A stretch of DNA of 64,000 nucleotides from Escherichia phage vB_EcoM_ESCO25: the sequence record OM386656.1; one strand, given 5' to 3'. The position numbers were made by a program, and so were the translations under genes. Of the stretch, positions 19,557 to 63,702 are shown in pieces (the first letter of the stretch is position 1; every line of letters begins with the position of its first letter). The notes beneath the pieces are model-generated. The model searched no databases. It saw only the letters and a list, made by a program, of their open reading frames with translations, and was not told the DNA's origin.

Positions 19557-19569
19557 AAAACCTCCTACG

Positions 19570-38233: not shown

Positions 38234-38419
38234 GATATCGCCCTTTCTTTGTTGTGCGCCCTGGTTGGCGCGGTAGAAAGATAATAGCCCTTTTCTTTAT
38301 ATATAGCAAGCAAAAAGAAAATAAAAAAGATTGAAAAATGGTTGACGTTAACCAGGCGGCGGCGTAGTATTCATCTTGTAGGGCGGCAATGGTGCCGCTC
38401 ACTATTTGGAGTTAAGATC

Positions 38420-38617: not shown

Positions 38618-38707
38618 AAACTATTGACAACAAACAACAACCTGATAAGATGTATCACATAGGGCGGGAAGTGGTTTCCCGCTCGTAACAGAAGAGAGAT
38701 TATCATC

Positions 38708-38980: not shown

Positions 38981-39056
38981 GGCTTGACATTAACGAATAA
39001 TTTGTTAATATGTTACATAAAGCGGGAATAGTTCCCGCTATTTGTAAGGTGGTAGA

Positions 39057-39314
39057 ATGTTTTACATCAAATTAAAAGGTCACGTGATCGCGTTCAAAGA
39101 TAACGCTTTTTACAGATTAGCAAAATATGCGTTAATACATCCCCACTATGTTTATATAAGGAGGCGTGATGAAATAAATATCTTTGATCAAACAACATGC
39201 GAGAACATCGAGATCCGCAAGGTTGGCGTACGTGATTATCGTACATCTTTCTACCCTTGCAAGGATTCAGCAAGTCTTTTTAAAGTATGCCAATTGTTGA
39301 AAAAAGGTGGTTAA
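39057..39314 (+). CDS. hypothetical small protein (cassette gene)
   Basis: 85 aa ORF after cassette. Confidence 0.5.
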   Translation: MFYIKLKGHVIAFKDNAFYRLAKYALIHPHYVYIRRRDEINIFDQTTCENIEIRKVGVRDYRTSFYPCKDSASLFKVCQLLKKGG

Positions 39315-39873
39315 TATGGGCCGCGAATATGTGATCCAGTCTTGGGTAAAACATGAAGCAGATGATCCGCGCATCATTCCCGATCATCTTATCGATGAAT
39401 CCACGGGATATAGCGGTGAGCAAATAGGTAACAGATTAGCACGTAGTAACGGCAACGTAAAAGCGCGTTATGTGCGCCCTGGTTGGCTGGCAAATGGTAA
39501 CGCTGATTTATCCAGTGCGGAAGATGCGAGCGACGGCGCGAAAGATAATCCTTTGTACAAAGTTGATCCGGCTTTTCGTGTCCTGGATGAATACCCCAGC
39601 AAGATAGCGGCGCTCGATCAGGCCCTGGAAAGTAAGCGCATCACCTGGACCGCTTACAACATGGCAAAAAACGTACTTGATGGTAAATTGATTCAAGCTG
39701 AAAGAAAATTAGCCAAAATTGCAGCCATAGCCCAGGAGGAAGACGAGGAGACAACGGAAGAGGAAGAGTACGAAGAGATCCCGCCGTTGTTGTGTGTTGA
39801 TGCTTTTCCTGATTATCAGCCGACAGAGGAAGAAAAAAGGATCGCACTAGAAAACTTTGAAAATAGTCTTTGA
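39307..39873 (+). CDS. hypothetical protein, acidic C-terminus
   Basis: 188 aa ORF; EEDEETTEEEEYEE tail. Confidence 0.5.
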   Translation: MVNMGREYVIQSWVKHEADDPRIIPDHLIDESTGYSGEQIGNRLARSNGNVKARYVRPGWLANGNADLSSAEDASDGAKDNPLYKVDPAFRVLDEYPSKIAALDQALESKRITWTAYNMAKNVLDGKLIQAERKLAKIAAIAQEEDEETTEEEEYEEIPPLLCVDAFPDYQPTEEEKRIALENFENSL

Positions 39874-39955
39874 CATATCGCCGCCACTGGCATAATATTT
39901 ACCACGTAGGGCGGCAATGGTGCCGCTCATAGTGAAATTATGCAAGAGGCTTACA

Positions 39956-40051
39956 ATGATTAATAAAGAAAATAGCTTGACGGTTGGAACGATTAACGCT
40001 ATCATTCTAGCCGTTCCATTTTGGATTGTAGTAGCGGCTATTATTTTCTAA
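39956..40051 (+). CDS. hydrophobic micro-ORF (31 aa), not on ORF track
   Basis: MINKENSLTVGTINAIILAVPFWIVVAAIIF, downstream of cassette 39870..39927. Confidence 0.35.
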   Translation: MINKENSLTVGTINAIILAVPFWIVVAAIIF

Positions 40052-40141
40052 AAATATTCTTGACAACGTTTTTTAATCTGATAAGATGTATCACATAGGG
40101 CGGCGGAATACTTCCCCGCCAAAACAAAAAAGGGTAACACA

Positions 40142-40504
40142 ATGAGCAAGCAAATCAATACTATCATGTTAAACCTGGTATCCTTCCGCGATGATATGAA
40201 AAATTTACCACGTGAAACGGTTGATATTCATGTTTCAGCTTATCGCGCCCTTATTGACATGTTACCGCTAAAACGTGATCAACATGCCGCTAACATGATG
40301 CTTAATGCTATGCTTAAAAAGATGATTCAAACGGATCTCATCCTGGCGTATGAGTATCAAGGGCGCTTATATGCTACTTACAACAAGGCGGTACCTGGTC
40401 TGGGAAGTACCGAAGAGTTGCACGGCTTAAACCTGGATCAGAACACTTGGGATAGTATGCGCCGCGTTATGGTATGGGCCGAAAGCGGTAAAATTTACGA
40501 ATAA
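40142..40504 (+). CDS. hypothetical protein (cassette gene)
   Basis: 120 aa ORF after cassette. Confidence 0.5.
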   Translation: MSKQINTIMLNLVSFRDDMKNLPRETVDIHVSAYRALIDMLPLKRDQHAANMMLNAMLKKMIQTDLILAYEYQGRLYATYNKAVPGLGSTEELHGLNLDQNTWDSMRRVMVWAESGKIYE

Positions 40505-40586
40505 AACGGTTGACACTGTTTAAAATTCTGGTATAGTTTATCACGTAGGGCGGCAATGGTGCCGCCAACAATAAAAGGTTAACATC

Positions 40587-40766
40587 ATGACTATCATTGC
40601 AAAAACTGAGATTATAGGTTTAGATTCGATCCTCCTGGCTTATGAGGAAACTTTAAAAATGTATGTAGTGACCTATGGTGATTATGTGCGTGAATACGAA
40701 TACATTGATCTTGCTTTCGAATGTTACATTCGCCAGGTCAATAAAGCCTATAACGATTATCGTTAA
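40587..40766 (+). CDS. hypothetical small protein (59 aa), not on ORF track
   Basis: MTIIAKTEIIGLDSILLAYEETLKMYVVTYGDYVREYEYIDLAFECYIRQVNKAYNDYR after cassette 40510..40566. Confidence 0.45.
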   Translation: MTIIAKTEIIGLDSILLAYEETLKMYVVTYGDYVREYEYIDLAFECYIRQVNKAYNDYR

Positions 40767-40863
40767 AAGTTTTAGTCTTATACTATTGACAATGAGTGAT
40801 AGTATAAGCATAATAACTTTTATCGGGAATACTTCCCACTAACCAAAAAAAGAGAGTAATATC

Positions 40864-41229
40864 ATGGCTATTAATATCAATGTTTCCTCTTATGCTACCC
40901 TGGCTGACACGGCTAAAATTGAATTATCCAGCATTGAGGCGGTGCATATTAGCGCCCGTCGTTGGTTTCAACAGTCCTACGGTAACACATATTTTTCTTT
41001 AATGGTTGACGTTGAGATCGGCGGTAAACTGATCGAGGTGGTTAACGTTCCGTTTCAATATGGTTATGGTGATCATTTTGATACCGTCGCCCTGGAAGAA
41101 TTTAGCAAGGTTATTAATATGGAAGGTAAAGAGTTTTCACGCGGCGCGTATCTTTCCCGTTTTTGCCGTGACAATGGGATCACTGTATACAGTCATGCAA
41201 GCGATGTTAAACGTAAAAAAGATTTATAA
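40864..41229 (+). CDS. hypothetical protein (cassette gene)
   Basis: 121 aa ORF after cassette. Confidence 0.5.
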   Translation: MAININVSSYATLADTAKIELSSIEAVHISARRWFQQSYGNTYFSLMVDVEIGGKLIEVVNVPFQYGYGDHFDTVALEEFSKVINMEGKEFSRGAYLSRFCRDNGITVYSHASDVKRKKDL

Positions 41230-41321
41230 AAAGCATTGACAGCACGAATAAAAAGAGTAAACTGTATTACATCAAGGCGGCGGAATGGTCCACCGCCTAA
41301 CAAAGAGAAGAGGAAAACATC

Positions 41322-41489
41322 ATGATCACTTTCGCTACCCGTGAAGCCGCTCGCAACGTTGCCCGTAAAGTTAACGCCGCCAACCTGGGCGCTACGCTTA
41401 AAGCCCCTGTAAAAGATGAATCAGGAAAATGGATCTTCCCTGGTCTGCGTCATGCTGACAAGTTAGGTACTTTAAGCCTTAAAAAATAA
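41322..41489 (+). CDS. hypothetical small basic protein (55 aa), not on ORF track
   Basis: MITFATREAARNVARKVNAANLGATLKAPVKDESGKWIFPGLRHADKLGTLSLKK; shares the first 15 coding nt and RBS context with the next gene. Confidence 0.45.
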   Translation: MITFATREAARNVARKVNAANLGATLKAPVKDESGKWIFPGLRHADKLGTLSLKK

Positions 41490-41563
41490 TCGTTGACTTT
41501 TCGTTATAGCGCCTTATAATGGGCGCTATAGAGAAGAGAAACCACTACTAACAAGGAAACATC

Positions 41564-41785
41564 ATGATCACTTTCGCTATTGTCGCCGTTGTCGCTGGTC
41601 AGGTTTACATAAACGATACATTCACCACAGAAGACAAGGCCGCAGGAGACATAACCGCCGTTTACAATGAGTGCAAGGCAGTAGAAAGGATGTTAGCGCC
41701 TTGTATGCTAATGAGTGAACGCCAGGACGGGATAACAGTATTTACTAACATTGAAACAGGGTACCAAATGGTAGTAACAAAATAA
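41564..41785 (+). CDS. hypothetical small protein (cassette gene)
   Basis: 73 aa ORF; starts MITFA, identical 5' junction to the previous gene. Confidence 0.5.
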   Translation: MITFAIVAVVAGQVYINDTFTTEDKAAGDITAVYNECKAVERMLAPCMLMSERQDGITVFTNIETGYQMVVTK

Positions 41786-41864
41786 AGCTTGACACGGATT
41801 TAATTTTTAGTAAACTGTTACACGTAGGGCGGGAATAGTTCCCGCTCAAAAAGAGAGAAAGACC

Positions 41865-42218
41865 ATGAAAGCACAAAATGCAATTAAAGAGTACATCCTT
41901 GCCGCTATCGATTTTAATGATTACGGTATTACAACCGAAAAAGAGAAGATCGCGGAATTGATGCGCCGTTTTAATTCCGAGTACTGGTACCCTGATAACC
42001 AATCACGTTTTAATTATAGTATTGTTAAAGCACTTGCATCATGGTTACAAGGCTTGCCATCAGATATCAATATCGCTTTCGAATATTGGGAAATTGATCG
42101 CCTGTTAACATCCTGGGGATACATTAAAGAGAATAGCAGCGATGATAAAATCCAACGAGAAAGGGAAAATTATTGGCTTTATATTGCAGGCGTGATCCTT
42201 GCTTGCTCTTATGAATGA
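41865..42218 (+). CDS. hypothetical protein (cassette gene)
   Basis: 117 aa ORF. Confidence 0.5.
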   Translation: MKAQNAIKEYILAAIDFNDYGITTEKEKIAELMRRFNSEYWYPDNQSRFNYSIVKALASWLQGLPSDINIAFEYWEIDRLLTSWGYIKENSSDDKIQRERENYWLYIAGVILACSYE

Positions 42219-42297
42219 TAAACCTTGACAATTTTACAAAACAGTTTAAATTAACAATATAGCGGCAATGGTGCCGCTCATATGAAGAGGAAACAAA

Positions 42298-42444
42298 ATG
42301 AATACATCTAATCGCGCAGAAAAAATTCAATCTTCCAAGATCCGCAAGGCCTGGAACGAGGAAGTGATCCGCAAAGGCGACAAGCGCAATAAAACAAAGC
42401 GTGGGAAGAGTGACAAATATAATTGGATGGATTTAGAGGATTAA
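42298..42444 (+). CDS. hypothetical small basic protein (48 aa), not on ORF track
   Basis: MNTSNRAEKIQSSKIRKAWNEEVIRKGDKRNKTKRGKSDKYNWMDLED; followed by a terminator. Confidence 0.4.
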   Translation: MNTSNRAEKIQSSKIRKAWNEEVIRKGDKRNKTKRGKSDKYNWMDLED

Positions 42445-42452
42445 CATAACAA

Positions 42453-42479
42453 GGGGCGCACCAAGCGCCCTTTCTTTTT
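42453..42479 (+). terminator. intrinsic terminator (copy 1 of a repeated terminator)
   Basis: GGGGCGCACCAAGCGCCC followed by TTTCTTTTT; identical to the copy at 48656. Confidence 0.65.
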
Positions 42480-42500
42480 ACATGTAGAGGATAAACAAAG

Positions 42501-42686
42501 ATGACTTTAAGCGAGCTTAAAACAGCCTACAACGCAACGTTAAAAATAGCCGTGCGTTACCGTGACGAATACGGTTTTATTGCGCAGGGCGTGATCCTGG
42601 GCTTTTCTGACGATGGTTTGATCTATGTTGATGCACATCACAATAAGGTTAAACCTGAAAACGTCATTAGCATAAAATATCTTTAA
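42501..42686 (+). CDS. hypothetical small protein
   Basis: 61 aa ORF; RBS agagga. Confidence 0.45.
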   Translation: MTLSELKTAYNATLKIAVRYRDEYGFIAQGVILGFSDDGLIYVDAHHNKVKPENVISIKYL

Positions 42687-42770
42687 AAGTGGTTGACACC
42701 ATAACCGGACCTGTTAAACTGTATTACATCAGGCGGGGAATAGTTCCCACCATACAAAAAGGTAAATATT

Positions 42771-42977
42771 ATGATCACCGCAAAACAAGAAAAAATCATT
42801 ATCGACGTTGCAGCCGTTGCTGCTATTGCTATTATTGGATCTTATTATGACACCGCGCGTCCTTCCTCCTTGCATGAGGTCGCCGCCGTTGCATCAGTTG
42901 GCGTACTGTTTTACGTTGGTAAACGCTATTTATCACCAATGATTAACAAGCTGACACCGTGGAAAAATAAAGGTTGA
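42771..42977 (+). CDS. small membrane protein (cassette gene)
   Basis: 68 aa; hydrophobic IIIDVAAVAAIAIIGSYY. Confidence 0.5.
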   Translation: MITAKQEKIIIDVAAVAAIAIIGSYYDTARPSSLHEVAAVASVGVLFYVGKRYLSPMINKLTPWKNKG

Positions 42978-43048
42978 TCCTGTTTTATATTGTGTTATAG
43001 TTATCGTGTAGGGCGGCAATGGTGCCGCGCCCTTTTGAGGATGCAATC

Positions 43049-43333
43049 ATGAGTAAAGCTAACACCGTGCTAATGTTTTCCCTGATTAATGATTCCGCTT
43101 ACTTGTCCAACATGACGCAGGAGGGTAACACATTAACGGCAACATTCACCAATAAGCTTGACCGGGTGATCATCGTCTCACTGAAAACAGTTAGTAAAGG
43201 CTTTTACTCGTTAGCTTATCATTGGATCACCGATACCGATGAGACAAGCCAGGACTATAGCACCCCTTTCCCTGAATCAATGGCACGGGAGGTCATCGCC
43301 GCCGTTGTAAATGATGGTTTGTTTACTGCATAA
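43049..43333 (+). CDS. hypothetical protein (cassette gene)
   Basis: Start trimmed to MSKANTVLMF. Confidence 0.5.
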   Translation: MSKANTVLMFSLINDSAYLSNMTQEGNTLTATFTNKLDRVIIVSLKTVSKGFYSLAYHWITDTDETSQDYSTPFPESMAREVIAAVVNDGLFTA

Positions 43334-43431
43334 AATAATTTAGAAAAAGGCTTGCAATCATTTTGAGATAGTGTATATTTAATTCATAGGGCGGCGGGAA
43401 TAGTTCCCAAAGCAAACGAGAGGATTACACG

Positions 43432-43551
43432 ATGAGCAAGTACACAGTAGAATACACGGTAGAGAATCCGGCAGTATCCGAAGGTAAAAAGATGACATTT
43501 GCCATCAGTATAATCGCTTTCGTTGTCACTATCTTATCAATCATCTTATAA
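43432..43551 (+). CDS. hydrophobic micro-ORF (39 aa), not on ORF track
   Basis: MSKYTVEYTVENPAVSEGKKMTFAISIIAFVVTILSIIL after cassette 43352..43408. Confidence 0.4.
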   Translation: MSKYTVEYTVENPAVSEGKKMTFAISIIAFVVTILSIIL

Positions 43552-43561
43552 GGTGCACACC

Positions 43562-43723
43562 ATGAAAACAACAGATATTATCAAAGAGATCGCCCTTGCC
43601 GCTGACGTTGAGATCGAGGAAGTGATCGCGCTCAATCTTACAGAAAACGATCTGCGCAACTATGAAGCGGAAAGCGTGAAAGCAAGTGGCGCGGTCCTGG
43701 CATATAATCCGGCTAACAAATAG
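43562..43723 (+). CDS. hypothetical small protein
   Basis: Start trimmed to MKTTDIIKEI. Confidence 0.45.
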   Translation: MKTTDIIKEIALAADVEIEEVIALNLTENDLRNYEAESVKASGAVLAYNPANK

Positions 43724-43803
43724 TTTGACAAGCTGAATCAACCTGATAAGATGTATCACATAGGGGCGACAAGCGCCCCGCCTAACAGAAGAGAGAAAAA
43801 ATC

Positions 43804-44082
43804 ATGACCATCGTTAAATTAACAACCGAAGAAATGAAAACAATGTTAACCACTAATTTACAAAATTGGAAAATTGGTGTTGACGTTGAAACAGTGTGCA
43901 AGTTGAACGACAAACTAACACCGGACGACATTGAAACGATCATCCGTGCAGATTTCTATGATGCTTTATACGATGATTCCACAGTCCTTGAAACGATGTT
44001 GGATAACGCTTGGATCAATCCCGATTTGGCGGCTTATGGTCATCTTGCCTTTGAAGCCATCCATAATGTTTATAATCGTTAA
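43804..44082 (+). CDS. hypothetical protein (cassette gene)
   Basis: 92 aa ORF. Confidence 0.5.
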   Translation: MTIVKLTTEEMKTMLTTNLQNWKIGVDVETVCKLNDKLTPDDIETIIRADFYDALYDDSTVLETMLDNAWINPDLAAYGHLAFEAIHNVYNR

Positions 44083-44092
44083 GGGGGATAAC

Positions 44093-44203
44093 ATGAATCC
44101 GAAAGATATGCAAGCATGGAAAGGGTACGACGATCTAAGCGCCTTGCGCAATAAGTCAAGCCGTAACCTTAGACGGTTGGAAGCAAAGAAAAAGAAAAAA
44201 TAG
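44093..44203 (+). CDS. hypothetical small basic protein (36 aa)
   Basis: MNPKDMQAWKGYDDLSALRNKSSRNLRRLEAKKKKK; RBS aaggggga. Confidence 0.4.
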   Translation: MNPKDMQAWKGYDDLSALRNKSSRNLRRLEAKKKKK

Positions 44204-44281
44204 TTTGACAAGTCCGCCTAGTCTGATAATATGTATCTTGTAGGGCGGCAATGGTGCCGCTCACAAGAAGAGAGAAAAATC

Positions 44282-44566
44282 ATGAAAATCACAAAAAGCC
44301 TGACTAATTATGCAGCACGTCGCGGATTATGTTTAACCGTTGAAAACTTAGGGAAAGAAGACTTTTTGTGTTTTTGGGAGCTTGAAAATGATTGCGAGTG
44401 GATGTTTTCTTATTCTATCTGCGAAGATCAAAACGGTTGTTTGTTAACCTGGCGCGGTAATATCTATTTACCGGAAGAAATTAAAGAAGAGTTACCAGGT
44501 ACGATCATGACAGAGAGACAGCTTAAGGAAGTGATCAATTTTGTAGGGCAAAACATTAAAAAATAA
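44282..44566 (+). CDS. hypothetical protein (cassette gene)
   Basis: Start trimmed to MKITKSLTNY. Confidence 0.5.
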   Translation: MKITKSLTNYAARRGLCLTVENLGKEDFLCFWELENDCEWMFSYSICEDQNGCLLTWRGNIYLPEEIKEELPGTIMTERQLKEVINFVGQNIKK

Positions 44567-44651
44567 TTTGACAGTAGGCAAACAACGTAGTAAAGTTTAT
44601 TACATAGGGCGGCGGAATGGTCCACCGCTCACAACAGAAGAGAAACAAATC

Positions 44652-44822
44652 ATGATCCCGACTATGTTTTATGTATCGCGCAAAGGTCATAATATTTTTT
44701 GGTCTGAAGATTTAAATGAAGCCATGACGTTTGCCCGTGATCGTGTCGCTATCGGTGGCGTTAACATCACCGTAACCGATGAAAACGGCATTGAATACTA
44801 TAACGGCAACGATGAAGAGTAA
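44652..44822 (+). CDS. hypothetical small protein (cassette gene)
   Basis: Start trimmed to MIPTMFYVSRKG. Confidence 0.5.
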   Translation: MIPTMFYVSRKGHNIFWSEDLNEAMTFARDRVAIGGVNITVTDENGIEYYNGNDEE

Positions 44823-44866
44823 TCAACAAGGCGGGATTAATCCCGCCTGTATTAAAGGGTAATATA

Positions 44867-45013
44867 ATGAAAACTTTCAACGCAACAGCCTCGACAATTG
44901 GTTATATTATTACAGTGCAAGCCGTGGATCTGGTAGCAGCAACAAACAAGATTAAAAGAATGATCCCGATAGGCAGTGAATTTTCCGTTTGGGAAGTAAA
45001 AAATAAATCTTGA
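44867..45013 (+). CDS. hypothetical small protein (48 aa), not on ORF track
   Basis: MKTFNATASTIGYIITVQAVDLVAATNKIKRMIPIGSEFSVWEVKNKS; preceded by hairpin GGCGGGATTAATCCCGCC. Confidence 0.4.
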   Translation: MKTFNATASTIGYIITVQAVDLVAATNKIKRMIPIGSEFSVWEVKNKS

Positions 45014-45089
45014 CGATAATTTGTTATCTGATAGAATGTATTTCGTAGGGCGGGGCAATAAGGCAACGCCCATTAATGAGGGTAGAATC

Positions 45090-45194
45090 ATGTTAGAGAA
45101 AATTTTCACGGTTGTAGTAGTTGGCCTGGCGTTATCGGTTGGAGTGGTTGCAACTATGGCTAACATGATCCTATCTTCCCACGGTATCGGTTAA
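45090..45194 (+). CDS. hydrophobic micro-ORF (34 aa), not on ORF track
   Basis: MLEKIFTVVVVGLALSVGVVATMANMILSSHGIG after cassette 45010..45070. Confidence 0.4.
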   Translation: MLEKIFTVVVVGLALSVGVVATMANMILSSHGIG

Positions 45195-45195
45195 G

Positions 45196-45420
45196 GTGAA
45201 ACAAATGATCACGAACAAAACAGGCAAAACGGAATTTTTACGCGGCTTACAAGTTGGTAAGCCTGAGATCTGGCATTGCACGAAGTCCGCGCATAATGAA
45301 ATGAAAGATTTCACCGCTACTTTACAACGTGTTAAAATATCTATCACACAGAAAAAAGCCTTGTTGGTAGTAGAAAACGAGATCCCGCAAACTATTATTA
45401 TTGTCGAGCGTACAGCATGA
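45196..45420 (+). CDS. hypothetical small protein
   Basis: 74 aa ORF (GTG start; ATG at 45205 is an alternative). Confidence 0.45.
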   Translation: MKQMITNKTGKTEFLRGLQVGKPEIWHCTKSAHNEMKDFTATLQRVKISITQKKALLVVENEIPQTIIIVERTA

Positions 45421-45803
45421 AAACAGAAATCATTAACGAAATCATCAACGGCTATAAAGAAGCCTTTATTTTTGCTGAATCAGCAAGGGATCATGAAGGT
45501 AATTTTATTGATAACTTAGACGATTATGATTTTTCTCCTAGCGCGGACGAACGGATCGCCCAGGATGTAACAGCCTTTATTAATGCTAATCTTGCCGCTA
45601 TCTCTGAGGCAATGAGCGACGGCGCAACAGCCAACCAGATCGGGAATGATTTACATTTTACCCGTAACAGTCACGGCGTAGGCTTTTGGGATCGCCCTGA
45701 AATATACACCACTAACACGGCGAACCGCCTAACCAATGCAGCTAAGTTTATGCCGAACGTGTCGGCTTACATTGGTGAAGATAATTTGATTTATATTGAA
45801 TAA
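45417..45803 (+). CDS. hypothetical protein
   Basis: 128 aa ORF; ATGA overlap. Confidence 0.5.
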   Translation: MKTEIINEIINGYKEAFIFAESARDHEGNFIDNLDDYDFSPSADERIAQDVTAFINANLAAISEAMSDGATANQIGNDLHFTRNSHGVGFWDRPEIYTTNTANRLTNAAKFMPNVSAYIGEDNLIYIE

Positions 45804-45884
45804 AAAGTATTGACACAGATCGCCAGTGTGCTAATATTTACCACGTAGGGCGGCAATGGTGCCGCCGATAATGAGGAAAGTAAA

Positions 45885-46184
45885 ATGGAAACTATCGCTA
45901 TTGTTACCGTAGAAAAACTGGTTGTTGGTGATGTATTCGCGTTAATGGTGCCTAACAGCAGCAAACTGGGTGCTTATGAAGTAATGGATCATAAAAATGA
46001 ATCATTTGGCGACGGTTGCACAATGGCGGTAAAATCTTTAAAGGATGGAATCATCCGCCAGGCTAACTGGCACAAAGGGAATCAAGTCGGTTTAATATCA
46101 GCTAATTTCTTGCCAGAAGAGCAAACGTTAGACCAACTATCAGGCGGTAAGACGTTAGCCGAACTACTGGAAACAGCGATCTAA
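45885..46184 (+). CDS. hypothetical protein (cassette gene)
   Basis: 99 aa ORF. Confidence 0.5.
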   Translation: METIAIVTVEKLVVGDVFALMVPNSSKLGAYEVMDHKNESFGDGCTMAVKSLKDGIIRQANWHKGNQVGLISANFLPEEQTLDQLSGGKTLAELLETAI

Positions 46185-46228
46185 TCAACAAAGGGGCGGC
46201 AACGCCCCACATCAGAAAGGAAAAGATT

Positions 46229-46465
46229 ATGAGTATTGCAACAGTATTAAACGCCGTTAAAACCGCTGAATCATCCGGCTTGCATGTTGAGCTTATAGAT
46301 CAACCAGGTGGCGATCTCCTTGTCCAGGTTTACCCGCCGAAAGTAGGGGATGATTATTATTGGGCTTATTCTGATACGTTCGAACAAGTAGACACGAAAG
46401 CGATCACGGCTTTTATTTTAAAAGCTATTGAAGAAAATAACTTTCATCATAACATCAATCAATAA
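46229..46465 (+). CDS. hypothetical protein
   Basis: 78 aa ORF after hairpin GGGGCGGCAACGCCCC. Confidence 0.5.
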   Translation: MSIATVLNAVKTAESSGLHVELIDQPGGDLLVQVYPPKVGDDYYWAYSDTFEQVDTKAITAFILKAIEENNFHHNINQ

Positions 46466-46519
46466 ACCATAAGCGGGGCGGTAACGCCCCATTAAACGCA
46501 ATAGGAAGAGGATAGGCGC

Positions 46520-46804
46520 ATGAAAAAGATGATCGCAGTAGTTGCCCTGGTTGTTGGTATTAACGCGCCTGTAATGGCGAAAGAGTTGCCAGAATCCATC
46601 ACGTTAACCGATATTAACGCAGTGAACCGGATCGGCGTTAATTATCGCCTATACCTTGCCGCTAAAACTTTCCAGGACGGCACAACAGAGTACTACGGAT
46701 TCGAGGGTGTCCGGTGCGGTGAGCTTGCACGCGACCTTAAGGAAGATCCAGACCTTGAGGCCATACCGATGACCGTAAACGGTAAAGCCCAGGTAAACCG
46801 CTAA
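46520..46804 (+). CDS. secreted protein (signal peptide)
   Basis: MKKMIAVVALVVGINAPVMA signal peptide. Confidence 0.55.
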   Translation: MKKMIAVVALVVGINAPVMAKELPESITLTDINAVNRIGVNYRLYLAAKTFQDGTTEYYGFEGVRCGELARDLKEDPDLEAIPMTVNGKAQVNR

Positions 46805-46806
46805 CC

Positions 46807-46941
46807 ATGAGAAAGGTAATCATCACAATGGGGATCGTAGTAGCAACGCTGGCGCTTATCCCCTTCATGGTTGAATATGTGCTGATTAATGTTGTCCTGG
46901 TAGTCAGTGACCTATTGGAAACGGTTGGCACCTGGTTTTAA
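46807..46941 (+). CDS. hydrophobic micro-ORF (44 aa), not on ORF track
   Basis: MRKVIITMGIVVATLALIPFMVEYVLINVVLVVSDLLETVGTWF. Confidence 0.4.
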   Translation: MRKVIITMGIVVATLALIPFMVEYVLINVVLVVSDLLETVGTWF

Positions 46942-46953
46942 GGAGTAATAAAA

Positions 46954-47145
46954 ATGAATGCAGAACAAGTTAGAAAGGTATTAGCAGCGTTGCGGTATCA
47001 CAACCATAGCAAGGTAAAAAATGATCCTGATTATGTGGATTCAAGCCTGGAAGAAGACACATTGCAAGCTATAAGCCATATGCAAGAATTGTTTAAGCGT
47101 ATGACAGAGAAGAACAGATCTGATTATATAGGTGACGAGATCTAA
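46954..47145 (+). CDS. hypothetical small protein
   Basis: 63 aa ORF; RBS aaggag. Confidence 0.5.
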   Translation: MNAEQVRKVLAALRYHNHSKVKNDPDYVDSSLEEDTLQAISHMQELFKRMTEKNRSDYIGDEI

Positions 47146-47154
47146 TCTTTACAA

Positions 47155-47186
47155 AAACAGGGCTTGCTTTTGTCCTGTTTTTTGTT
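47155..47186 (+). terminator. intrinsic terminator
   Basis: AACAGG-gcttgcttttgt-CCTGTT followed by TTTTTG. Confidence 0.5.
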
Positions 47187-47399
47187 ATGCTTATTGAACG
47201 GGCGGCACTTGGGAGCAGGGGAAGATAATCACCGGAAGACCCCGCTATATATTGATAGCTAATACCTATCAAACAACAAAACATCAAAGAGATAAACTAT
47301 CAAATCTTTACAATCCCACCTATTGACACCGGATCACGCTTACATTATTATTTATCACGTAGGGCGGGAATGTTTCCCACCTGATTTAGGAGTCATATC

Positions 47400-47633
47400 A
47401 TGATCGAACAAATTAAAAGCACTACACCAAATGTTAACGGTAATGTTTCTCACTTTATCAGGGATAATGAAAGAGGTACACCGTACGCCGCCGTAACCGT
47501 TCAACCTAACGGGGATTATTGGTTTACCGTGTACGGATCTTACTCTTTTGGACGTTCGGCACATGATAAGATCTTGCAAGTGGTTAAGCCTACTGGGAAG
47601 AATATCACAGCAGAAAAATTTTATAAAAAATAA
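47400..47633 (+). CDS. hypothetical protein (cassette gene)
   Basis: 77 aa ORF; RBS aggag. Confidence 0.5.
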   Translation: MIEQIKSTTPNVNGNVSHFIRDNERGTPYAAVTVQPNGDYWFTVYGSYSFGRSAHDKILQVVKPTGKNITAEKFYKK

Positions 47634-48682: not shown

Positions 48683-48888
48683 GCCCGAACAATGTTGATA
48701 GCTTTCGCCTATGAAAAACCGACACAGAACAAAACTGAATAAATCGCGGTATCGAGCTAATCAACCAGCAAACGAATAACCATACCTCCCAGGGTTACAG
48801 GCTGTTAGAGAGCTATTTAGAGCGGTTAAAATCGATCAACAACCAACAACAAACCATCAAAAACACCCTTTTACCTCCTTTCTAGTGC

Positions 48889-48906
48889 AATGATAACCAT
48901 TATCAT
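48889..48906. promoter_or_regulatory. Fur-box-like palindrome
   Basis: AATGATAACCATTATCAT, close to the Fur consensus core AATGATAATCATTATC. Confidence 0.4.
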
Positions 48907-50102
48907 CTACCCATGATTATCTATGCAATATAAGCGCATAATTATAATGTTGATAATAGTTCGCAACAACTAACCAACAAACAACATAAAACAATAAGCA
49001 AACTAATCATAATCAAAGGAATAATAGCAAGATGATTGATAACGACAAACAATCAAACCATGATGAATACTAAGCAAAATAACGATAACACGACAAAACA
49101 ACCAACTAACGAACAATAACAAACGAAACCATTAAAATAATAACTATTAGCAAAATAGTGCCTGAATGAAATCATTACAAAACGAATCATTCACAGAGTC
49201 ATCATTAGCACGCTATGCCGGACACATAGCGAGCTAATAATAAGCCAACTACACCCCAACAATCATAACCATCGGTGATGGTTATTTCTTGTTACTGCGT
49301 AGCTTGCAATAATTGCAAGCGTAATGACGCTTACACTTATTGCGCTGGCTTATTATTAGCATTATATGTAATTACCAAGATCATAACATTAGCGCAATAA
49401 CAATAATCATTGTAATAATTATGTAAGGAAATAATTAACATGGCAATAATTATGGGGGCGAAATGTTACCGCCACAGGCGGGAATGTTGAGCAAGTTCTC
49501 TTAAACGTAAATAAAATCAGAAAATTCTTGATTTATTTTAGTTTTTATGTTAATAAACGTTTAAATAATAATCATTCTCATATAAATAATAGTCCGTCTG
49601 TCATGAGCGGCATTAGTTGACATTGTTCCGTCATATGATGAAGTTGCCAAGCCATTGATAAATAAGTGTTTGTGTGATTTATAATCAGGTGGCCCACCTT
49701 GTCGCTATGTTGGCATGAGCCTTGCATAAGTCATTGAATACGAATGATAATTATTCTCATTCGCATGATATTTGGGAATTGTCGCTGCGTGGACCTGACG
49801 GCCCGAAAATTCGCGTTAAGCACTTCTTACGTATGCGCCATGATTTTTGCCATATCATATTGATTCTATTAGATATTCTTGCCATGATTGCCATGAAACA
49901 GGGTGTCCCGAAATAATCTCTCCCCGTAGATATTTTGGGTTACTTTTTATACAAGAGCGGGGTGTCAAAAATAATCGGTATATATGGGATAATTGATAGG
50001 AATCCCCTATGATAATTCGATTGTAATTCCCTAAGATTGATCGTATGATGTTGGTGATTGATGATTGCCATGAAAGATGGCTAACGATGAGAGGAGATTG
50101 TC

Positions 50103-50447
50103 ATGCAAGAGAGTAAAAATGTTCCGTTGAGTAGTTTACGTCTAATGAAGTTTTACAAAGCTTGGCTTGCTGGTGAGGTAGAAGGTCACACAACGAGTGG
50201 TTTGTGCATATGTTTGATTAAGTATGTAGAGGGAACATACCCTGATGAACTGTTACCTCGTCTACAACAAGAGATGAAATCACAGTTTATTGGTGCAGGA
50301 TTGGATTACAATTTCCCGTTTAATGAAGGTGGTTATGAGGAATACACCTTTGAACATAAAAAACATATTTGCCATAAAAACAAACATCGTATACAATGGG
50401 TGCTAGATAGAATTCAAGATTATGAAGGAGAGAAAGATGACAAATAG
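50103..50447 (+). CDS. paralog family A member 1 (GLC...WV-D-R small protein)
   Basis: 114 aa; FYKAWL...TSGLCICL...GLDYNFPF...RIQWVLDR; RBS gagaggag. Confidence 0.55.
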   Translation: MQESKNVPLSSLRLMKFYKAWLAGEVEGHTTSGLCICLIKYVEGTYPDELLPRLQQEMKSQFIGAGLDYNFPFNEGGYEEYTFEHKKHICHKNKHRIQWVLDRIQDYEGEKDDK

Positions 50448-50805
50448 TATTCCGTTGAGCAGTGCAACATTGCTTCGCTTCTATAAAGCATGGATTGCCA
50501 ACTATCCTGCAATGAATCGCACAACGAGTGGCTTATGTGGTTGTCTGGTAGATTATGTAGATGATTTTGTTGGTGATACACCTAGAGAAGAAGATAGAAA
50601 ATGGCGTGATCATTTGTTGGACCGTTTGAAATATGAAATGAGGAAACAATTTACATGTGCAGGGCTGGACTACAATCTTCCGTTCAATGTGGATTGCATG
50701 GATTACCTTTCAGAGTGTATAAACTTGGCGTGTCATACCAACACGTTACGTCTTCAGTGGGTGAAAGATCGGATTGAAGATGCAAATAATGCTTGCATTG
50801 AATAA
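50437..50805 (+). CDS. paralog family A member 2
   Basis: Start trimmed to MTNSIPLSS; FYKAWI...TSGLCGCL...GLDYNLPF...RLQWVKDR. Confidence 0.55.
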   Translation: MTNSIPLSSATLLRFYKAWIANYPAMNRTTSGLCGCLVDYVDDFVGDTPREEDRKWRDHLLDRLKYEMRKQFTCAGLDYNLPFNVDCMDYLSECINLACHTNTLRLQWVKDRIEDANNACIE

Positions 50806-58422: not shown

Positions 58423-58695
58423 ATGAATAAAGATCGGTTTCTTTCTTTAGTCGCGGAAGCTCCTTTTGATGTTCTTGGGGTGAGATTATGGAAAGACAGA
58501 AACTATGGGTTAGATGTTCAAACATATTCTCTTTGGTTGGTTGGGGAGCACAGCTTAGATGAAAGCTTGTGCATGGGTAGGGATTCTCGTTCCCTTTGTT
58601 TAAAGTTCAGAAGCTTAGAACGCGCAAACAAAGAGCAAGAAAAACTAACGAGGTGGCTAAATGAAAACAAGCACAGGGTTGATGGAGTTTTATAA
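58423..58695 (+). CDS. hypothetical protein
   Basis: 90 aa ORF; candidate promoter TTGACA at 58374 upstream. Confidence 0.5.
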   Translation: MNKDRFLSLVAEAPFDVLGVRLWKDRNYGLDVQTYSLWLVGEHSLDESLCMGRDSRSLCLKFRSLERANKEQEKLTRWLNENKHRVDGVL

Positions 58696-58987
58696 AATTT
58701 ATCTAGCATGGATTGATGTTGGTGCTCCTGATGGTAAACCTTTTCGGCGGGATTGTGGTTTGTGTGCCAACTTGTTCGATTATGTGCACAGAGGTAATTA
58801 CAACCCCATTATAACAACCTTGTCAGATGAAATGCACGCACAGTTTTACCATAAAGGGTTGAATCAAGGACTCCCTTTCAATGAGAACTACGATGCATAT
58901 GTCTTAGAGTCAGATGCAGATGCCTGTCACCTGAACGTGGACAGAATTAATTGGGTAAGAGATCGTATTGCAGAGGAGGATGAATAA
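58661..58987 (+). CDS. paralog family A member 4
   Basis: 108 aa; FYKIYLAWI...CGLCANL...KGLNQGLPF...RINWVRDR. Confidence 0.55.
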   Translation: MKTSTGLMEFYKIYLAWIDVGAPDGKPFRRDCGLCANLFDYVHRGNYNPIITTLSDEMHAQFYHKGLNQGLPFNENYDAYVLESDADACHLNVDRINWVRDRIAEEDE

Positions 58988-60907: not shown

Positions 60908-60977
60908 ATAATAAATACCTTGACAAGTGTTTATTCGTTTTGTAAAGTGAGGATACAGCAATGGTTTAGGAGTGGTT

Positions 60978-61649
60978 ATGAAAAAGTTTGTTGTTTACAG
61001 TCGTCTTTCTAAACAGAAAAAAGGTGAGGCACAATATGGTATGGAGAGCCAAGAGAATGATATCCGTTACTTCTTAGACTCTGTGCCTGATGCGGAAGTT
61101 ATTGGTCAATTTTCTGAATACTATTCGGGTAAGGGCGATTGGAAGCAACGTAAGGAACTGGTTAAAGCGGTTGAAATGTGTAAAGCTACCGGAGCAACTT
61201 TATTGGTAGCTAAAGTTGACCGCTTGGGTCGTAACAACGCCTCCGTAGCAACTCTTCTAGAAATGATTGATGTTAAGATAGCCATCATGCCAGACGCAGA
61301 TAAAATGGTTATACAGCTTCTGTCTGTTCTGGCTGAACAAGAAGTTAGAGGTATTGCTGATCGTATTAAAAAGGGTCTTGCTGTAGCAAAAAGCAAAGGT
61401 GTTTTATTAGGCAGTGCTAATCCTAAAACTGCCGCTGCACGTAGAAAAGGAAAAATGGAATACAATTCTGTTAAAGCAGACGCTTTTGCAGAGACATTTC
61501 GTGAACGCTTGGAGATCCTTAGAGATTTAAATACACCTTACAAAACTATTGCTGAAAAATTCAATAGTAAGAAAATAGCAACAGCACGTGGTGGTAAATG
61601 GGATGCTAAAACTGTTTCTCGTTTGTGTGCCAGACTGAACATTAAATAG
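60978..61649 (+). CDS. small serine recombinase (resolvase/invertase family)
   Basis: Start trimmed to MKKFVVYSRLSKQKKGEAQYGMESQ (catalytic-Ser region), LLVAKVDRLGRN, C-terminal HTH-like region; own promoter (ttgacaagtg...) at about 60921. Confidence 0.65.
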   Translation: MKKFVVYSRLSKQKKGEAQYGMESQENDIRYFLDSVPDAEVIGQFSEYYSGKGDWKQRKELVKAVEMCKATGATLLVAKVDRLGRNNASVATLLEMIDVKIAIMPDADKMVIQLLSVLAEQEVRGIADRIKKGLAVAKSKGVLLGSANPKTAAARRKGKMEYNSVKADAFAETFRERLEILRDLNTPYKTIAEKFNSKKIATARGGKWDAKTVSRLCARLNIK

Positions 61650-61657: not shown

Positions 61658-62068
61658 ATGAAACAAGAAAATGAATCTGTAGATCACTTAATCATGCTGT
61701 CAGCCCTTTTTGCCGGATGGGAGGTATTTTTTGAAAATTTGTTCAATTCTGCTACAGATGGTTCTGATTTTATGCGCCAATTTAAACGACGAACTGTTGA
61801 GGACTATACTTTCTATTCAGGTCGGATTGAAAAAGGTTACGAAGATATAGATACAATACTTACAATTAAAGTTTTAGATGTGATGTTTAGTGTTATAGAT
61901 GCTATCGATGAAAGTCTTCCGATTTTAGAAGATTGCAATACGAAAGCTTATGTTTACAAAATAGCCCGTGCTTATGTGTCTGCAAACAGTTGTCTTCTTT
62001 CCACCCAAATTGCGGTGAACAATCTTGCCAACTTGTTCGATGAAGGAGAAACTTTTTATGACAATTGA
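61658..62068 (+). CDS. hypothetical protein
   Basis: 136 aa ORF; RBS aggagagga. Confidence 0.5.
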   Translation: MKQENESVDHLIMLSALFAGWEVFFENLFNSATDGSDFMRQFKRRTVEDYTFYSGRIEKGYEDIDTILTIKVLDVMFSVIDAIDESLPILEDCNTKAYVYKIARAYVSANSCLLSTQIAVNNLANLFDEGETFYDN

Positions 62069-62423
62069 TTTGAAGTGTAAGAGGATTCTTTTAGATTTCT
62101 ATAATAATTGGTTAGAACACCTCCGTCTCTTTCCACGAGAAAGTGGTTACGCTGATGTTGGCTTATGCCGAGGTCTACGTATGTATATAAGTGATGAATT
62201 TCGAGCCGATCATTCTTTAGCATATTCTGTTTATGGTATGCAATTAGCCAGTTTTGAAAATGCTGGTTTAGATACAACTTTCCCGTTTAACACAGCAAAA
62301 TCTTTTGAGCAAGAGTGTAAGGAAAAACGTTGCATGTTTAATGAAAAACGTGTACAGTGGGTTAAGGATCGAGTTAAACAACTGGAACAAGAGTTGGATT
62401 TCTTCTATGATGAGGCAGAATAA
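62058..62423 (+). CDS. paralog family A member 5
   Basis: Start trimmed to MTIDLKCKRILLDFYNNWL; ...VGLCRGL...AGLDTTFPF...RVQWVKDR. Confidence 0.55.
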   Translation: MTIDLKCKRILLDFYNNWLEHLRLFPRESGYADVGLCRGLRMYISDEFRADHSLAYSVYGMQLASFENAGLDTTFPFNTAKSFEQECKEKRCMFNEKRVQWVKDRVKQLEQELDFFYDEAE

Positions 62424-63363: not shown

Positions 63364-63702
63364 ATGTATTACACTGAAGACTACATATTGTATAACTTTT
63401 TTAAAGGCTGGTTGGAATGGGCGGAAAAAGCTCCTGTTGGAGATTGTGTTTTTCCTTGGGACTCTCGTCAAGGTTTGTGTCGTTGTTTGGAAGACTGGCT
63501 TATAACCACAAGCTACAATTCAGAGACTAAGAAATCTACATCAAAGAGACTAAAAATGTTATTTGAAGAAGATGGTTTAGATCCGATTTATCCTTTCGGT
63601 GCTGAAAGCTTCCACAATGGTCTTTTTCTTGGCACTCAACATTATGACAAAGATCGCGTAGATTGGGTAAAAGAAAAGGTAGCACAATATGAATGGGGCT
63701 AA
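63364..63702 (+). CDS. paralog family A member 6
   Basis: Start trimmed to MYYTEDYILYNFFKGWL (RBS aaggagg); ...QGLCRCL...DGLDPIYPF...RVDWVKEK. Confidence 0.55.
   Translation: MYYTEDYILYNFFKGWLEWAEKAPVGDCVFPWDSRQGLCRCLEDWLITTSYNSETKKSTSKRLKMLFEEDGLDPIYPFGAESFHNGLFLGTQHYDKDRVDWVKEKVAQYEWG

What the first reader, a model, noticed from the sequence alone, without database searches (positions are those of the whole stretch)
60921..61649. Small serine recombinase with its own promoter inside a lytic-looking gene block
A 223-aa resolvase/invertase-type serine recombinase is preceded by a TTGACA promoter at about 60921 and is not adjacent to any recognisable attachment site, tRNA or repressor. In virulent phages such enzymes usually drive DNA inversion switches (host-range variation, as with Gin/Cin) or resolve replication multimers; no invertible segment lies inside this window, so its target may be elsewhere in the genome.
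Basis: partly seen in the sequence, partly recalled or inferred. Interest (0 to 1): 0.5.

Follow-up and report, generated by a model that had tools for sequence, protein, structure and literature searches.

The report
Conserved serine recombinase in virulent coliphage
The gene is a real, intact small serine recombinase that every phAPEC8-like virulent E. coli phage carries almost unchanged. It is already annotated in public genomes, nothing supports a Gin/Cin-style inversion switch, and its DNA target is still unknown.

Summary
ORF 60978-61649 (+) encodes a 223-aa protein with a Resolvase catalytic domain (PF00239, E=5e-18). The catalytic residues Y7, R9, S11, D81, R82 and R85 are intact. A TTGACA-17-TAAAGT promoter-like site lies at 60920-60948.

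The window is a Phapecoctavirus, a phAPEC8-like virulent myovirus of about 150 kb. The identical protein is in at least 62 GenBank phage records, variously called resolvase, serine recombinase or DNA invertase, so the feature is already known.

It is the most constrained gene in its neighbourhood: 3-16 synonymous and 0 non-synonymous differences. Homologues are present in nearly all matched Stephanstirmvirinae records.

The invertase reading is not supported:
- There is no HTH_7 domain.
- The whole phAPEC8 genome has no inverted repeats other than terminators and chance-level short matches.
- The tail-fibre block is collinear in all 60 genomes listed.

The C-terminal domain resembles the start of the "Recombinase" domain of large serine integrases. 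The nearest non-phage relatives (35-39% identity, full length) sit on small non-mobilizable plasmids, where such enzymes usually resolve multimers.

My best guess (about 0.4) is a resolvase-type enzyme acting on the phage's own replicating DNA. No target site could be identified.

In passing, the window contains the physical genome ends (a 329-bp terminal repeat) and, next to them, a covariation-supported structured element.

The parts
60920..60948 (+). Sigma-70-type promoter-like site: TTGACA, 17-nt spacer, TAAAGT
   Evidence: Found by the scan (10 of 12 matches). The match is at chance level for this AT-rich region on its own. A comparable TTGACA-like/-10 pair lies directly upstream of 6 of the 7 other phage homologues I read. 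The sequence is identical in Schickermooser. It is not annotated as a promoter in phAPEC8.
60968..60972 (+). Ribosome-binding site AGGAG, 5 nt before the ATG
   Evidence: Read directly from the sequence.
60978..61649 (+). Serine recombinase CDS, 223 aa plus stop
   Evidence: The protein is 100% identical in 61 of the 62 phage records scoring at least 99%. It equals phAPEC8 CDS 16627-17298, noted there as 'putative site-specific recombinase'.
60990..61403 (+). Resolvase catalytic domain plus the long E-helix (residues 5-142); the catalytic Ser11 codon TCT is at 61008-61010
   Evidence: PF00239, E=5e-18. Y7, R9, S11, D81, R82 and R85 are invariant. It aligns to Tn3/gamma-delta resolvase and Gin. 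The AlphaFold model has a helix at 109-139.
61422..61634 (+). C-terminal helical DNA-binding domain (residues 149-219), related to the start of the large-serine-recombinase 'Recombinase' domain and not to HTH_7
   Evidence: Weak PF07508 match at 187-216. Some homologues carry a precomputed PF07508 hit. The model has four helices with pLDDT 76-95. The longest Foldseek alignments are to the Bxb1 and SPbeta-type integrases, 250-259 columns.

Best explanation
**Shown**
- The ORF encodes a catalytically competent small serine recombinase.
- Its architecture is an N-terminal resolvase catalytic domain, a long E-helix and a short helical DNA-binding domain that looks like a truncated 'Recombinase' domain of large serine integrases.
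- It lacks the zinc-ribbon and coiled-coil modules of those integrases.
- Homologues occur in nearly all matched Stephanstirmvirinae (Phapecoctavirus, Justusliebigvirus and relatives), and the gene is under very strong constraint.
- It lies in the early small-gene block, 11.5 kb from the left physical end of the genome.

**Inferred**
- A sigma-70-type promoter directly upstream would let host RNA polymerase express the gene early in infection.
- Dimers would bind a short dyad-symmetric site in the phage DNA, synapse two copies as a tetramer and cut both strands through Ser11.
- Strands would then be exchanged between directly repeated sites.
- In this reading the enzyme is a resolvase-type (deletion/resolution or cyclisation) recombinase working on the phage's own replicating or terminally repeated DNA, not an invertase or an integrase.
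- The site itself has not been found.
For: **Identity and active site**
- establish the domain and the catalytic residues.

**Fold**
- The model has pLDDT 88.7. The best matches are Bxb1, Sin, gamma-delta and TP901-1.

**Constraint**
- The protein is 100% identical in 61 of the 62 records at 99% or more, while the gene is only 97.5-99.6% identical at nucleotide level.
- The gene has 3-16 synonymous and 0 non-synonymous differences. Its neighbours have N/S of roughly 0.2-1.
- The Citrobacter phage Tr1 copy is 67% identical, while only four of the 16 flanking window ORFs have any match there, at 35% or less.

**Vertical history**
- Divergence between Phapecoctavirus and Justusliebigvirus copies is 57% identity. 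That lies within the 33-86% range of syntenic orthologues.
- Shewanella phage 1/40 carries the gene in an HslV...DprA context resembling that of Justusliebigvirus.

**Resolvase-type role**
- Full-length homologues at 35-39% identity occur in 124 plasmid records, 104 of them non-mobilizable. Many are only 5-30 kb and carry 5-6 genes.
- In replicons of that kind a lone serine recombinase is, from general knowledge, normally the multimer-resolution enzyme.
- One of these plasmids has a 34-bp 16-2-16 palindrome 34 nt upstream of the gene.

**Against inversion or integration**

**Promoter**
- An upstream promoter-like site recurs across phage homologues.
Against: - No res-like or crossover site was identified next to the gene or elsewhere. 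The function is therefore inferred from relatives that are themselves uncharacterised.
- These phages have short direct terminal repeats (329 bp here; 342 bp in BME3, PMC12210895). They presumably package from concatemers, so resolving multimers is not obviously useful.
- The gene sits at different loci in the two main genera. In ICP1 it sits in a segment whose genes lack legacy gp numbers, which I read as accessory. Both fit an accessory gene as well as a replication gene.
- The Schickermooser copy has six small indels. If these are real, the gene is dispensable for plaque formation.
Confidence: 0.4

Rival explanations
1. DNA invertase (Gin/Cin/Hin-like or Mpi-like). It would flip a segment or promoter elsewhere in the phage genome to vary host range or gene expression.
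For: The PHROG 125 label is 'DNA invertase'. The best profile match in the PDB is the Gin catalytic domain, E=3e-16. These phages carry several tailspike and fibre genes whose modules vary between isolates.
Against: There is no HTH_7 domain. The Mpi equivalog scores 22.6 bits against a cut-off of 272. The phAPEC8 genome has no inverted repeat of 18 nt or more apart from terminators, one chance-level 18-nt match and one palindrome. Short local inverted repeats are near chance (44 against 17-29 in shuffles). The window is collinear with phAPEC8. The tail block is single-stranded and collinear in all 60 listed genomes. Screens of window 1-50 kb were uninformative because of record-start breaks and repeated cassettes, so small invertons with short repeats are not excluded.
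Confidence: 0.07
2. An accessory or weapon gene whose target is foreign DNA: the host chromosome, resident prophages or satellites, plasmids or co-infecting phages. It could, for example, excise, invert or break a host element during takeover.
For: The gene sits among fast-evolving early genes with a promoter-like site of its own. Its locus differs between genera. In ICP1 it lies in a segment I read as accessory. No target is detectable in the phage genome. Distant relatives sit at a prophage end and in a small primase/terminase element.
Against: Extreme constraint and presence in nearly all matched Stephanstirmvirinae, whose hosts include E. coli, Klebsiella and Citrobacter, argue for a host-independent target. 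No candidate host site is known and none was tested here.
Confidence: 0.2
3. A selfish, formerly mobile gene cassette (transposase-like or homing-like) that persists without benefit to the phage.
For: There is a clean presence/absence difference at the Justusliebigvirus locus compared with phAPEC8, and a different locus in Phapecoctavirus. The unit is compact: promoter plus ORF.
Against: The position is fixed within each genus. It is the same in all 10 assembly contexts shown and in the two Justusliebigvirus and two Phapecoctavirus records whose neighbourhoods I inspected. Divergence tracks that of neighbouring orthologues. The cassette has no flanking repeats. There are no non-synonymous changes. 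The domain order is not that of IS607.
Confidence: 0.08
4. An integrase that allows occasional integration or a carrier state, so these phages would not be strictly virulent.
For: It is structurally closest over its full length to large serine integrases. Distant homologues lie at a prophage end and in a small integrative-looking element.
Against: The 2.5-kb region has no match in 5,426 complete E. coli genomes. The exact protein occurs in 884 assembly blocks and never on a contig longer than 1 Mb. It lacks the zinc-ribbon and coiled-coil modules that large serine integrases use for attP x attB selectivity. No repressor was seen among the flanking ORFs.
Confidence: 0.03

Closest known systems
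Tn3 / gamma-delta resolvase (TnpR) and plasmid resolvases such as Sin
   Same: It has the same catalytic domain and E-helix, the same DRLGR motif and Ser nucleophile, and a similar size of about 200 aa. The likely reaction type is resolution between direct repeats.
   Different: The C-terminal domain is not the HTH of TnpR. The N-terminus has the longer S...Q spacing seen in large serine recombinases; it aligns from residues 2-3 only with TP901-1 and 3guv. There is no adjacent multi-subsite res. There is no transposon or plasmid context.
DNA invertases Gin (Mu), Cin (P1), Hin, Pin; Bacteroides Mpi
   Same: It shares the catalytic domain; Gin is the best PDB profile hit, E=3e-16. It is phage-borne like Gin and Cin. 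Its PHROG family is labelled 'DNA invertase'.
   Different: It has no HTH_7 domain, no flanking inverted crossover sites, no invertible segment and no orientation variants. The Mpi model is far below its cut-off. From my own knowledge, Gin and Cin are in temperate phages.
Large serine recombinases/integrases (Bxb1, phiC31, TP901-1, SPbeta SprA)
   Same: The N-terminal motif pattern and the first helices of the DNA-binding 'Recombinase' domain are shared. The longest structural alignments are to these proteins.
   Different: It is 223 aa rather than the 486-596-residue chains matched. It has no zinc-ribbon domain or coiled coil. There is no attP/attB system and no prophage form.
Uncharacterised 'recombinase family proteins' of small plasmids (e.g. 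Klebsiella pIIIF7SW-P1_2, 5.8 kb; Marinovum pMaD11, 5.8 kb; Synechococcus 6.4-kb plasmids)
   Same: They are full-length homologues at 35-39% identity with the same two-domain layout. The recombinase is one of 5-6 genes and sits after a long non-coding stretch.
   Different: These are plasmid rather than phage replicons. A strong 34-bp palindrome lies just upstream in the Klebsiella plasmid, and nothing comparable lies upstream of the phage gene. As far as I could find, none of these proteins has been tested experimentally.
Cre/loxP of phage P1 (functional analogy only)
   Same: It is a phage-encoded site-specific recombinase which, from my own knowledge, cyclises terminally redundant DNA and resolves dimers. 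That is the type of role proposed here.
   Different: Cre is a tyrosine recombinase in a temperate plasmid-prophage. No lox-like site has been identified here.

Membership tests
Serine recombinase superfamily (Pfam Resolvase PF00239) | Catalytic-domain profile match above the curated threshold | tested here: met
   66 bits against a cut-off of 23.3, E=5.2e-18, residues 5-142.
Serine recombinase superfamily (Pfam Resolvase PF00239) | Nucleophilic Ser with the conserved Tyr/Arg before it and the D-R-x-x-R motif | tested here: met
   Y7, R9, S11, D81, R82 and R85 are invariant in 22 homologues. DRLGR aligns to gamma-delta/Tn3 DRLGR.
Serine recombinase superfamily (Pfam Resolvase PF00239) | Long E-helix followed by a DNA-binding domain | tested here: met
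   The AlphaFold model has a helix at 109-139 followed by a four-helix domain at 149-219, mean pLDDT 88.7.
Serine recombinase superfamily (Pfam Resolvase PF00239) | Catalyses site-specific strand exchange at a defined site | not testable with these tools
   This needs biochemistry. No site was identified in silico.
DNA invertases (Hin/Gin/Cin/Pin) | C-terminal HTH_7 (PF02796) DNA-binding domain | tested here: not met
   A Pfam scan at E up to 1 lists only PF00239 and a weak PF07508 match.
DNA invertases (Hin/Gin/Cin/Pin) | Two inverted crossover sites flanking an invertible segment, usually next to the gene | tested here: not met
   No such repeats were found near the gene or in the window. 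In the whole phAPEC8 genome, only terminators, one chance-level 18-nt match and one palindrome appear.
DNA invertases (Hin/Gin/Cin/Pin) | Both orientations of a segment seen among related genomes | tested here: not met
   The window is collinear with phAPEC8. The tail block is a single place on a single strand in 60 records. The rest of the genome was only partly screened.
DNA invertases (Hin/Gin/Cin/Pin) | Fis-dependent recombinational enhancer | not tested
   No reliable sequence test was available here.
Tn3-family / plasmid resolvases | A res site with several dyad-symmetric subsites adjacent to the gene, usually overlapping its promoter | tested here: not met
   The 70-nt upstream spacer has no palindrome with 10 or more of 12 arm matches.
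Tn3-family / plasmid resolvases | Carried by a transposon or plasmid whose cointegrates or multimers it resolves | tested here: not met
   The context is a virulent phage genome. Only relatives at 35-39% identity are on plasmids.
Large serine integrases | Full Recombinase domain plus zinc-ribbon domain and coiled coil; much larger protein | tested here: not met
   It is 223 aa. Only a partial PF07508 match is present (profile positions 19-48 of 102). The model ends after four short helices.
Large serine integrases | Integrated (prophage) form in host genomes | tested here: not met
   There is no match in 5,426 complete E. coli genomes. No contig longer than 1 Mb carries the protein.
IS607-type serine transposases | DNA-binding HTH placed N-terminal to the catalytic domain | tested here: not met
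   The catalytic domain starts at residue 5 and the DNA-binding domain is C-terminal.
NCBIfam equivalogs (YneB resolvase-like, XisF, Mpi invertase, CcrB) | Score above the curated equivalog cut-off | tested here: not met
   Scores are 32.5 against 175, 27.4 against 375, 22.6 against 272 and 17.5 against 900 bits.

The most novel reading that the evidence does not exclude
A site-specific recombination step is a conserved, previously unrecognised part of the lytic cycle of Stephanstirmvirinae, which have terminal repeats. A minimal two-domain serine recombinase, made early, would act at a single site in the phage chromosome. The site might lie in or beside the 329-bp terminal repeat region. The reaction would cyclise incoming DNA or resolve replication dimers, a Cre/lox-like function in strictly virulent phages.
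Probability: 0.15. Interest if true: 0.6.

Novelty: already known. Interest (0 to 1): 0.3.

Why it matters
As a sequence feature it is ordinary. The identical protein is already in dozens of GenBank phage records and hundreds of metagenome assemblies, and it was flagged as a putative site-specific recombinase in the phAPEC8 record.

What remains open is why strictly virulent phages keep a catalytically intact recombinase under such tight constraint. These phages are widely proposed for therapy, and recombinase or integrase genes are routinely treated as a safety flag in that setting.

Showing that it is a replication or resolution enzyme would remove a recurrent annotation worry. Some records call it an ABC transporter, others an invertase, and one paper reports that no recombinase gene was predicted. 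It might also provide a compact recombinase for engineering.

Tried and rejected
- **Inverted repeats near the gene and across the window**. Only chance-level pairs were found.
- **Whole-genome self-comparison of phAPEC8**. The 20-22-nt inverted matches are rho-independent terminators (AACCCGCTTCGGCGGGTTTTTT).
- **Exact inverted repeats of 13 nt or more within 10 kb**. There were 44, against 17-29 in shuffles, and none flanks a plausible switch.
- **Genome-wide scan for arm-spacer-arm palindromes**.
  - The best arm-2-arm hit is AATAATTGCAAGCGTA-AT-TACGCTTACACTTATT beside the terminal repeat.
  - It looked like a possible crossover site.
  - It is not conserved in sequence in Justusliebigvirus, where a different palindrome occupies the spot.
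  - It belongs to a covariation-supported folded element, so I rejected it as a protein-specific site.
- **The repeated 19-mer AATGATAATnATTmTCATT** as recombinase subsites. I rejected this because it matches the E. coli Fur-box consensus and has an odd (9-1-9) symmetry.
- **A 98-bp 'inverton' between 15-24-nt inverted arms.** Neither the native nor the inverted junction is present in IMG/VR, so the test was uninformative. Covariation indicates a stem rather than recombination sites.
- **Palindromes upstream of homologues**. They are present in FKP3 and Shewanella 1/40 but not conserved in the close relative alia.
- **Inversion screens of window 1-50 kb** against all phages. They were uninterpretable because of record-start breaks and repeated promoter cassettes.
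- **Literature**. There are no experiments on this protein, only the speculation in PMC10282059 that it keeps concatemers as single genomes.
- **Rfam on the non-coding region**. Nothing was found.

Full report
**What is there**

The ORF listed at 60972..61649 (+) most plausibly starts at the ATG at 60978. An AGGAG lies five bases upstream of that ATG.

Pfam gives Resolvase PF00239 at E=5.2e-18 over residues 5-142. A sub-threshold 'Recombinase' PF07508 match covers residues 187-216. PHROGs places the protein in phrog_125, 'DNA invertase'.

TTGACA is at 60920-60925, with a 17-nt spacer and TAAAGT. In this AT-rich stretch such matches are no more frequent than in shuffles (13 against 15.6). The promoter call is therefore not significant by itself.

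**Which genome**

The 58-64 kb segment is 97-98% identical to about 64 phAPEC8-like phages of the genus Phapecoctavirus, subfamily Stephanstirmvirinae. The whole window is collinear with phAPEC8 positions 105228-147737 followed by 1-19648.

The protein is at least 99% identical in 62 GenBank phage records, and 100% identical in 61 of them. Those records name it a hypothetical protein, resolvase, serine recombinase, DNA invertase, recombinase family protein or, wrongly, 'methionine ABC transporter ATP-binding protein'. phAPEC8 notes it as a 'putative site-specific recombinase'.

The only published comment I found is a speculation that it keeps concatemers as single genomes (PMC10282059). Another paper states that no recombinase was predicted in ESCO5 and ESCO37 (PMC10269720), although both encode this protein. 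The feature is therefore already known at annotation level and has not been studied experimentally.

**Is it a working enzyme?**

Across 22 homologues, down to about 31% identity, Y7, R9, S11, Q25, R58, D81, R82, R85 and E120 are invariant. The DRLGR block aligns with the same block in gamma-delta and Tn3 resolvase.

A family profile hits the following PDB entries:

| PDB target | E-value |
|---|---|
| Gin | 3e-16 |
| Tn3 resolvase | 1.6e-15 |
| gamma-delta resolvase | about 1e-14 |
| Sin/Bin3 | 1.6e-14 |

The N-terminal 25 residues align only with large-serine-recombinase-type entries (TP901-1, 3guv). This fits the longer Ser...Gln spacing of that group.

An AlphaFold model (pLDDT 88.7) shows the catalytic fold, a 31-residue E-helix and a four-helix C-terminal domain. 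Foldseek's longest alignments, 250-259 columns, are to the Bxb1 and SPbeta-type integrases. The best catalytic-domain fits are Sin and gamma-delta. No NCBIfam equivalog is approached.

The protein is thus a two-domain 'mini' serine recombinase. Its catalytic domain is followed by a truncated Recombinase-domain-like DNA binder, without the zinc ribbon or coiled coil.

**Constraint and history**

Within Phapecoctavirus the gene differs by up to 2.5% at nucleotide level while the protein is unchanged. Counting codon differences gives 3-16 synonymous and 0 non-synonymous changes. Flanking genes show N/S of roughly 0.2-1. The loci were selected by exact protein identity, but phAPEC8 and the unbiased tblastn result say the same.

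Homologues are present in Justusliebigvirus (57% identity), in other Stephanstirmvirinae of Klebsiella and Citrobacter (52-67%), in Shewanella phages 1/4 and 1/40 (35%), and in several large Vibrio phages. In ICP1 the gene lies in a segment that I read as accessory.

The locus is not syntenic between genera:
- In Justusliebigvirus the gene lies between the MTase-side and HisRS-side genes of a conserved block.
- The same junction in phAPEC8 is empty.
- Shewanella 1/40 has the gene in a comparable HslV...DprA setting, so that position is probably ancestral.

Divergence of the recombinase between the genera (57%) lies inside the range of the syntenic neighbours (33-86%). This fits one translocation rather than repeated transfer.

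By my reading of the printed upstream sequences, the window copy and six of the seven other phage copies examined have a TTGACA-like/-10 pair directly upstream.

The exact protein is found in 884 blocks of public assemblies. All 10 contexts shown are the same, and none is on a contig longer than 1 Mb.

**Testing the invertase idea**

The following checks were all negative:
- There is no HTH_7 domain.
- There is no inverted repeat pair near the gene or in the window beyond chance.
- In the complete phAPEC8 genome the only inverted matches of 18 nt or more are terminator hairpins, one chance-level 18-nt match and one palindrome.
- Exact local inverted repeats of 13 nt or more number 44, against 17-29 in shuffles, and none frames a plausible switch.
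- The tail and tail-fibre genes lie at phAPEC8 77-101 kb, outside the window.
- A 25-kb query over that block matches all 60 listed relatives as one place on one strand. The differences are replaced tailspike modules.

Integration is also unsupported. There is no match in 5,426 complete E. coli genomes.

**What points to a resolvase-type role**

tblastn against plasmids finds 124 records with full-length homologues at 35-39% identity. Of these, 104 are non-mobilizable, and many are only 5-30 kb. In two 5.8-kb plasmids the recombinase is one of five or six genes and follows about 650 bp of non-coding DNA.

In the Klebsiella plasmid a 16-2-16 palindrome (TATCATTTGTTTGCCG-AA-CGGCAAATTTATGATA) lies 34 nt upstream of the start. 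From general knowledge, such lone serine recombinases on small plasmids are multimer-resolution enzymes.

More distant relatives sit at the end of a Pseudomonas prophage and in a small primase/small-terminase element.

For the phage I therefore favour recombination between directly repeated sites on its own DNA, either dimer resolution or cyclisation. My confidence in that function is only about 0.4, for four reasons:
- No site was found.
- Phages with terminal repeats are not expected to need multimer resolution.
- The gene looks accessory in ICP1.
- The Schickermooser copy may be broken.

**Side findings**

The window contains the physical genome ends. The first and last 329 nt of the Schickermooser record are identical and map to window 49490-49818. 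Several other records end at the same base. BME3, a Justusliebigvirus, is reported to have a 342-bp terminal repeat (PMC12210895).

Just to the left, at about 49205-49360, lies the best conserved part of the 1.4-kb non-coding region. It consists of a hairpin plus a 15-bp stem closing three further hairpins. Its support is as follows:
- 97.7% of cells are paired.
- 11 pairs show compensatory double changes across six phages from the two named genera plus two unclassified Stephanstirmvirinae.
- Covariation is 0.24, against 0.09 in shuffles (0 of 500) and 0.02-0.045 in slid controls.

Rfam has nothing there. I see no evidence that this element is the recombinase's substrate.

Fur-box-like 19-mers are strongly enriched, 5 against 0.14 expected. 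They lie at 37.6 kb and in or near the terminal repeat.

**Verdict**

It is already annotated in public data. The Gin/Cin-type interpretation is not supported, a resolvase-type role is the best available guess, and the target remains unknown.

Noticed in passing
window 49490-49818, within the non-coding region 48690-50100: The physical genome ends lie inside the window. The first and last 329 nt of the Schickermooser record are identical (a direct terminal repeat) and map here. Several independent records end at about 49818. The recombinase gene is therefore about 11.5 kb from the left end.
   Followed up: yes
window ~49205-49360 (+); homologues L003 6043-6198, L021, L016 2157-2334, L019, L020: A conserved structured element of about 150 nt lies some 130 nt left of the terminal repeat. 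It has a hairpin plus a 15-bp outer stem enclosing three hairpins. Of 50 pairs, 97.7% of cells are paired and 11 pairs show compensatory changes across six phages. Covariation is 0.24 against 0.09 shuffled (0 of 500). There is no Rfam or tRNA hit. It could be a packaging, terminal-repeat-duplication or origin signal, or an RNA.
   Followed up: partly
window 37630, 37688, 48889, 49564, 49743: The 19-mer AATGATAATnATTmTCATT occurs 5 times against 0.14 expected. From my own knowledge it matches the E. coli Fur-box consensus GATAATGATAATCATTATC at about 14-15 of 19 positions. Two copies lie inside the terminal repeat next to TTGACA promoters, and copies are conserved in Justusliebigvirus muut. This suggests iron-responsive control of early transcription.
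   Followed up: partly
window 38350-47400: There are at least nine repeated cassettes. Each has a TTGACA promoter and a TAAGAT-type -10, followed by a conserved GC-rich hairpin (GGGCGGCAATGGTGCCGC or GGCGGGAATAGTTCCCGC) just before small early genes (families D1-D7). phAPEC8 annotates some of them as MEME/PHIRE promoters.
   Followed up: no
L001 3055-3330 (MK373788 ~11.36-11.63 kb), equivalent to window 61030-61230: The Schickermooser copy of the recombinase has six small deletions (1, 1, 7, 1, 2 and 7 nt) clustered in about 200 nt, while the rest of the gene is about 99.5% identical. The record annotates only the C-terminal 128 aa. This is either a real natural knockout or a local assembly error.
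   Followed up: partly
L002 3940-4670 and L005 3948-4669 versus L003 32713-32759: The recombinase occupies different loci in Justusliebigvirus and Phapecoctavirus. In Justusliebigvirus it lies between the MTase-side and HisRS-side genes, as it does loosely in Shewanella phage 1/40. In Phapecoctavirus it lies in the early block, and the first locus is a clean empty site with a terminator hairpin.
   Followed up: yes
window 49927-50099: A 175-nt non-coding block lies between the terminal repeat and the first left-end gene. It is 90% identical between Phapecoctavirus and Justusliebigvirus, far above the 70-80% of the surrounding non-coding DNA. The motif ATGATTGCCATGAAA occurs twice, at 49884 and about 50067.
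   Followed up: no
window 50103-50447, 50422-50805, ~55600, 58661-58987, 62058-62423, 63364-63702: There is a paralogous family of small early proteins sharing a G-L-(D/N)-x-x-(F/Y)-P-F motif. The evidence is DNA repeat family D9, and three window ORFs that hit the same Tr1 gene. Its function is unknown.
   Followed up: no
GenBank records listed: This recombinase is annotated as 'methionine ABC transporter ATP-binding protein' in several records (e.g. AV126, Mt1B1_P17, TSP7_1, phAPEC8_ev052). Near-identical genomes are labelled Campylobacter, Acinetobacter or Klebsiella phages, which are probably host-label errors.
   Followed up: no
L014 4323-4356 (Klebsiella aerogenes plasmid NZ_CP118334.1): A 34-bp 16-2-16 palindrome, TATCATTTGTTTGCCG-AA-CGGCAAATTTATGATA, lies 34 nt upstream of the plasmid homologue of this recombinase. 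It is a good candidate crossover or operator site for the plasmid branch of the family.
   Followed up: partly
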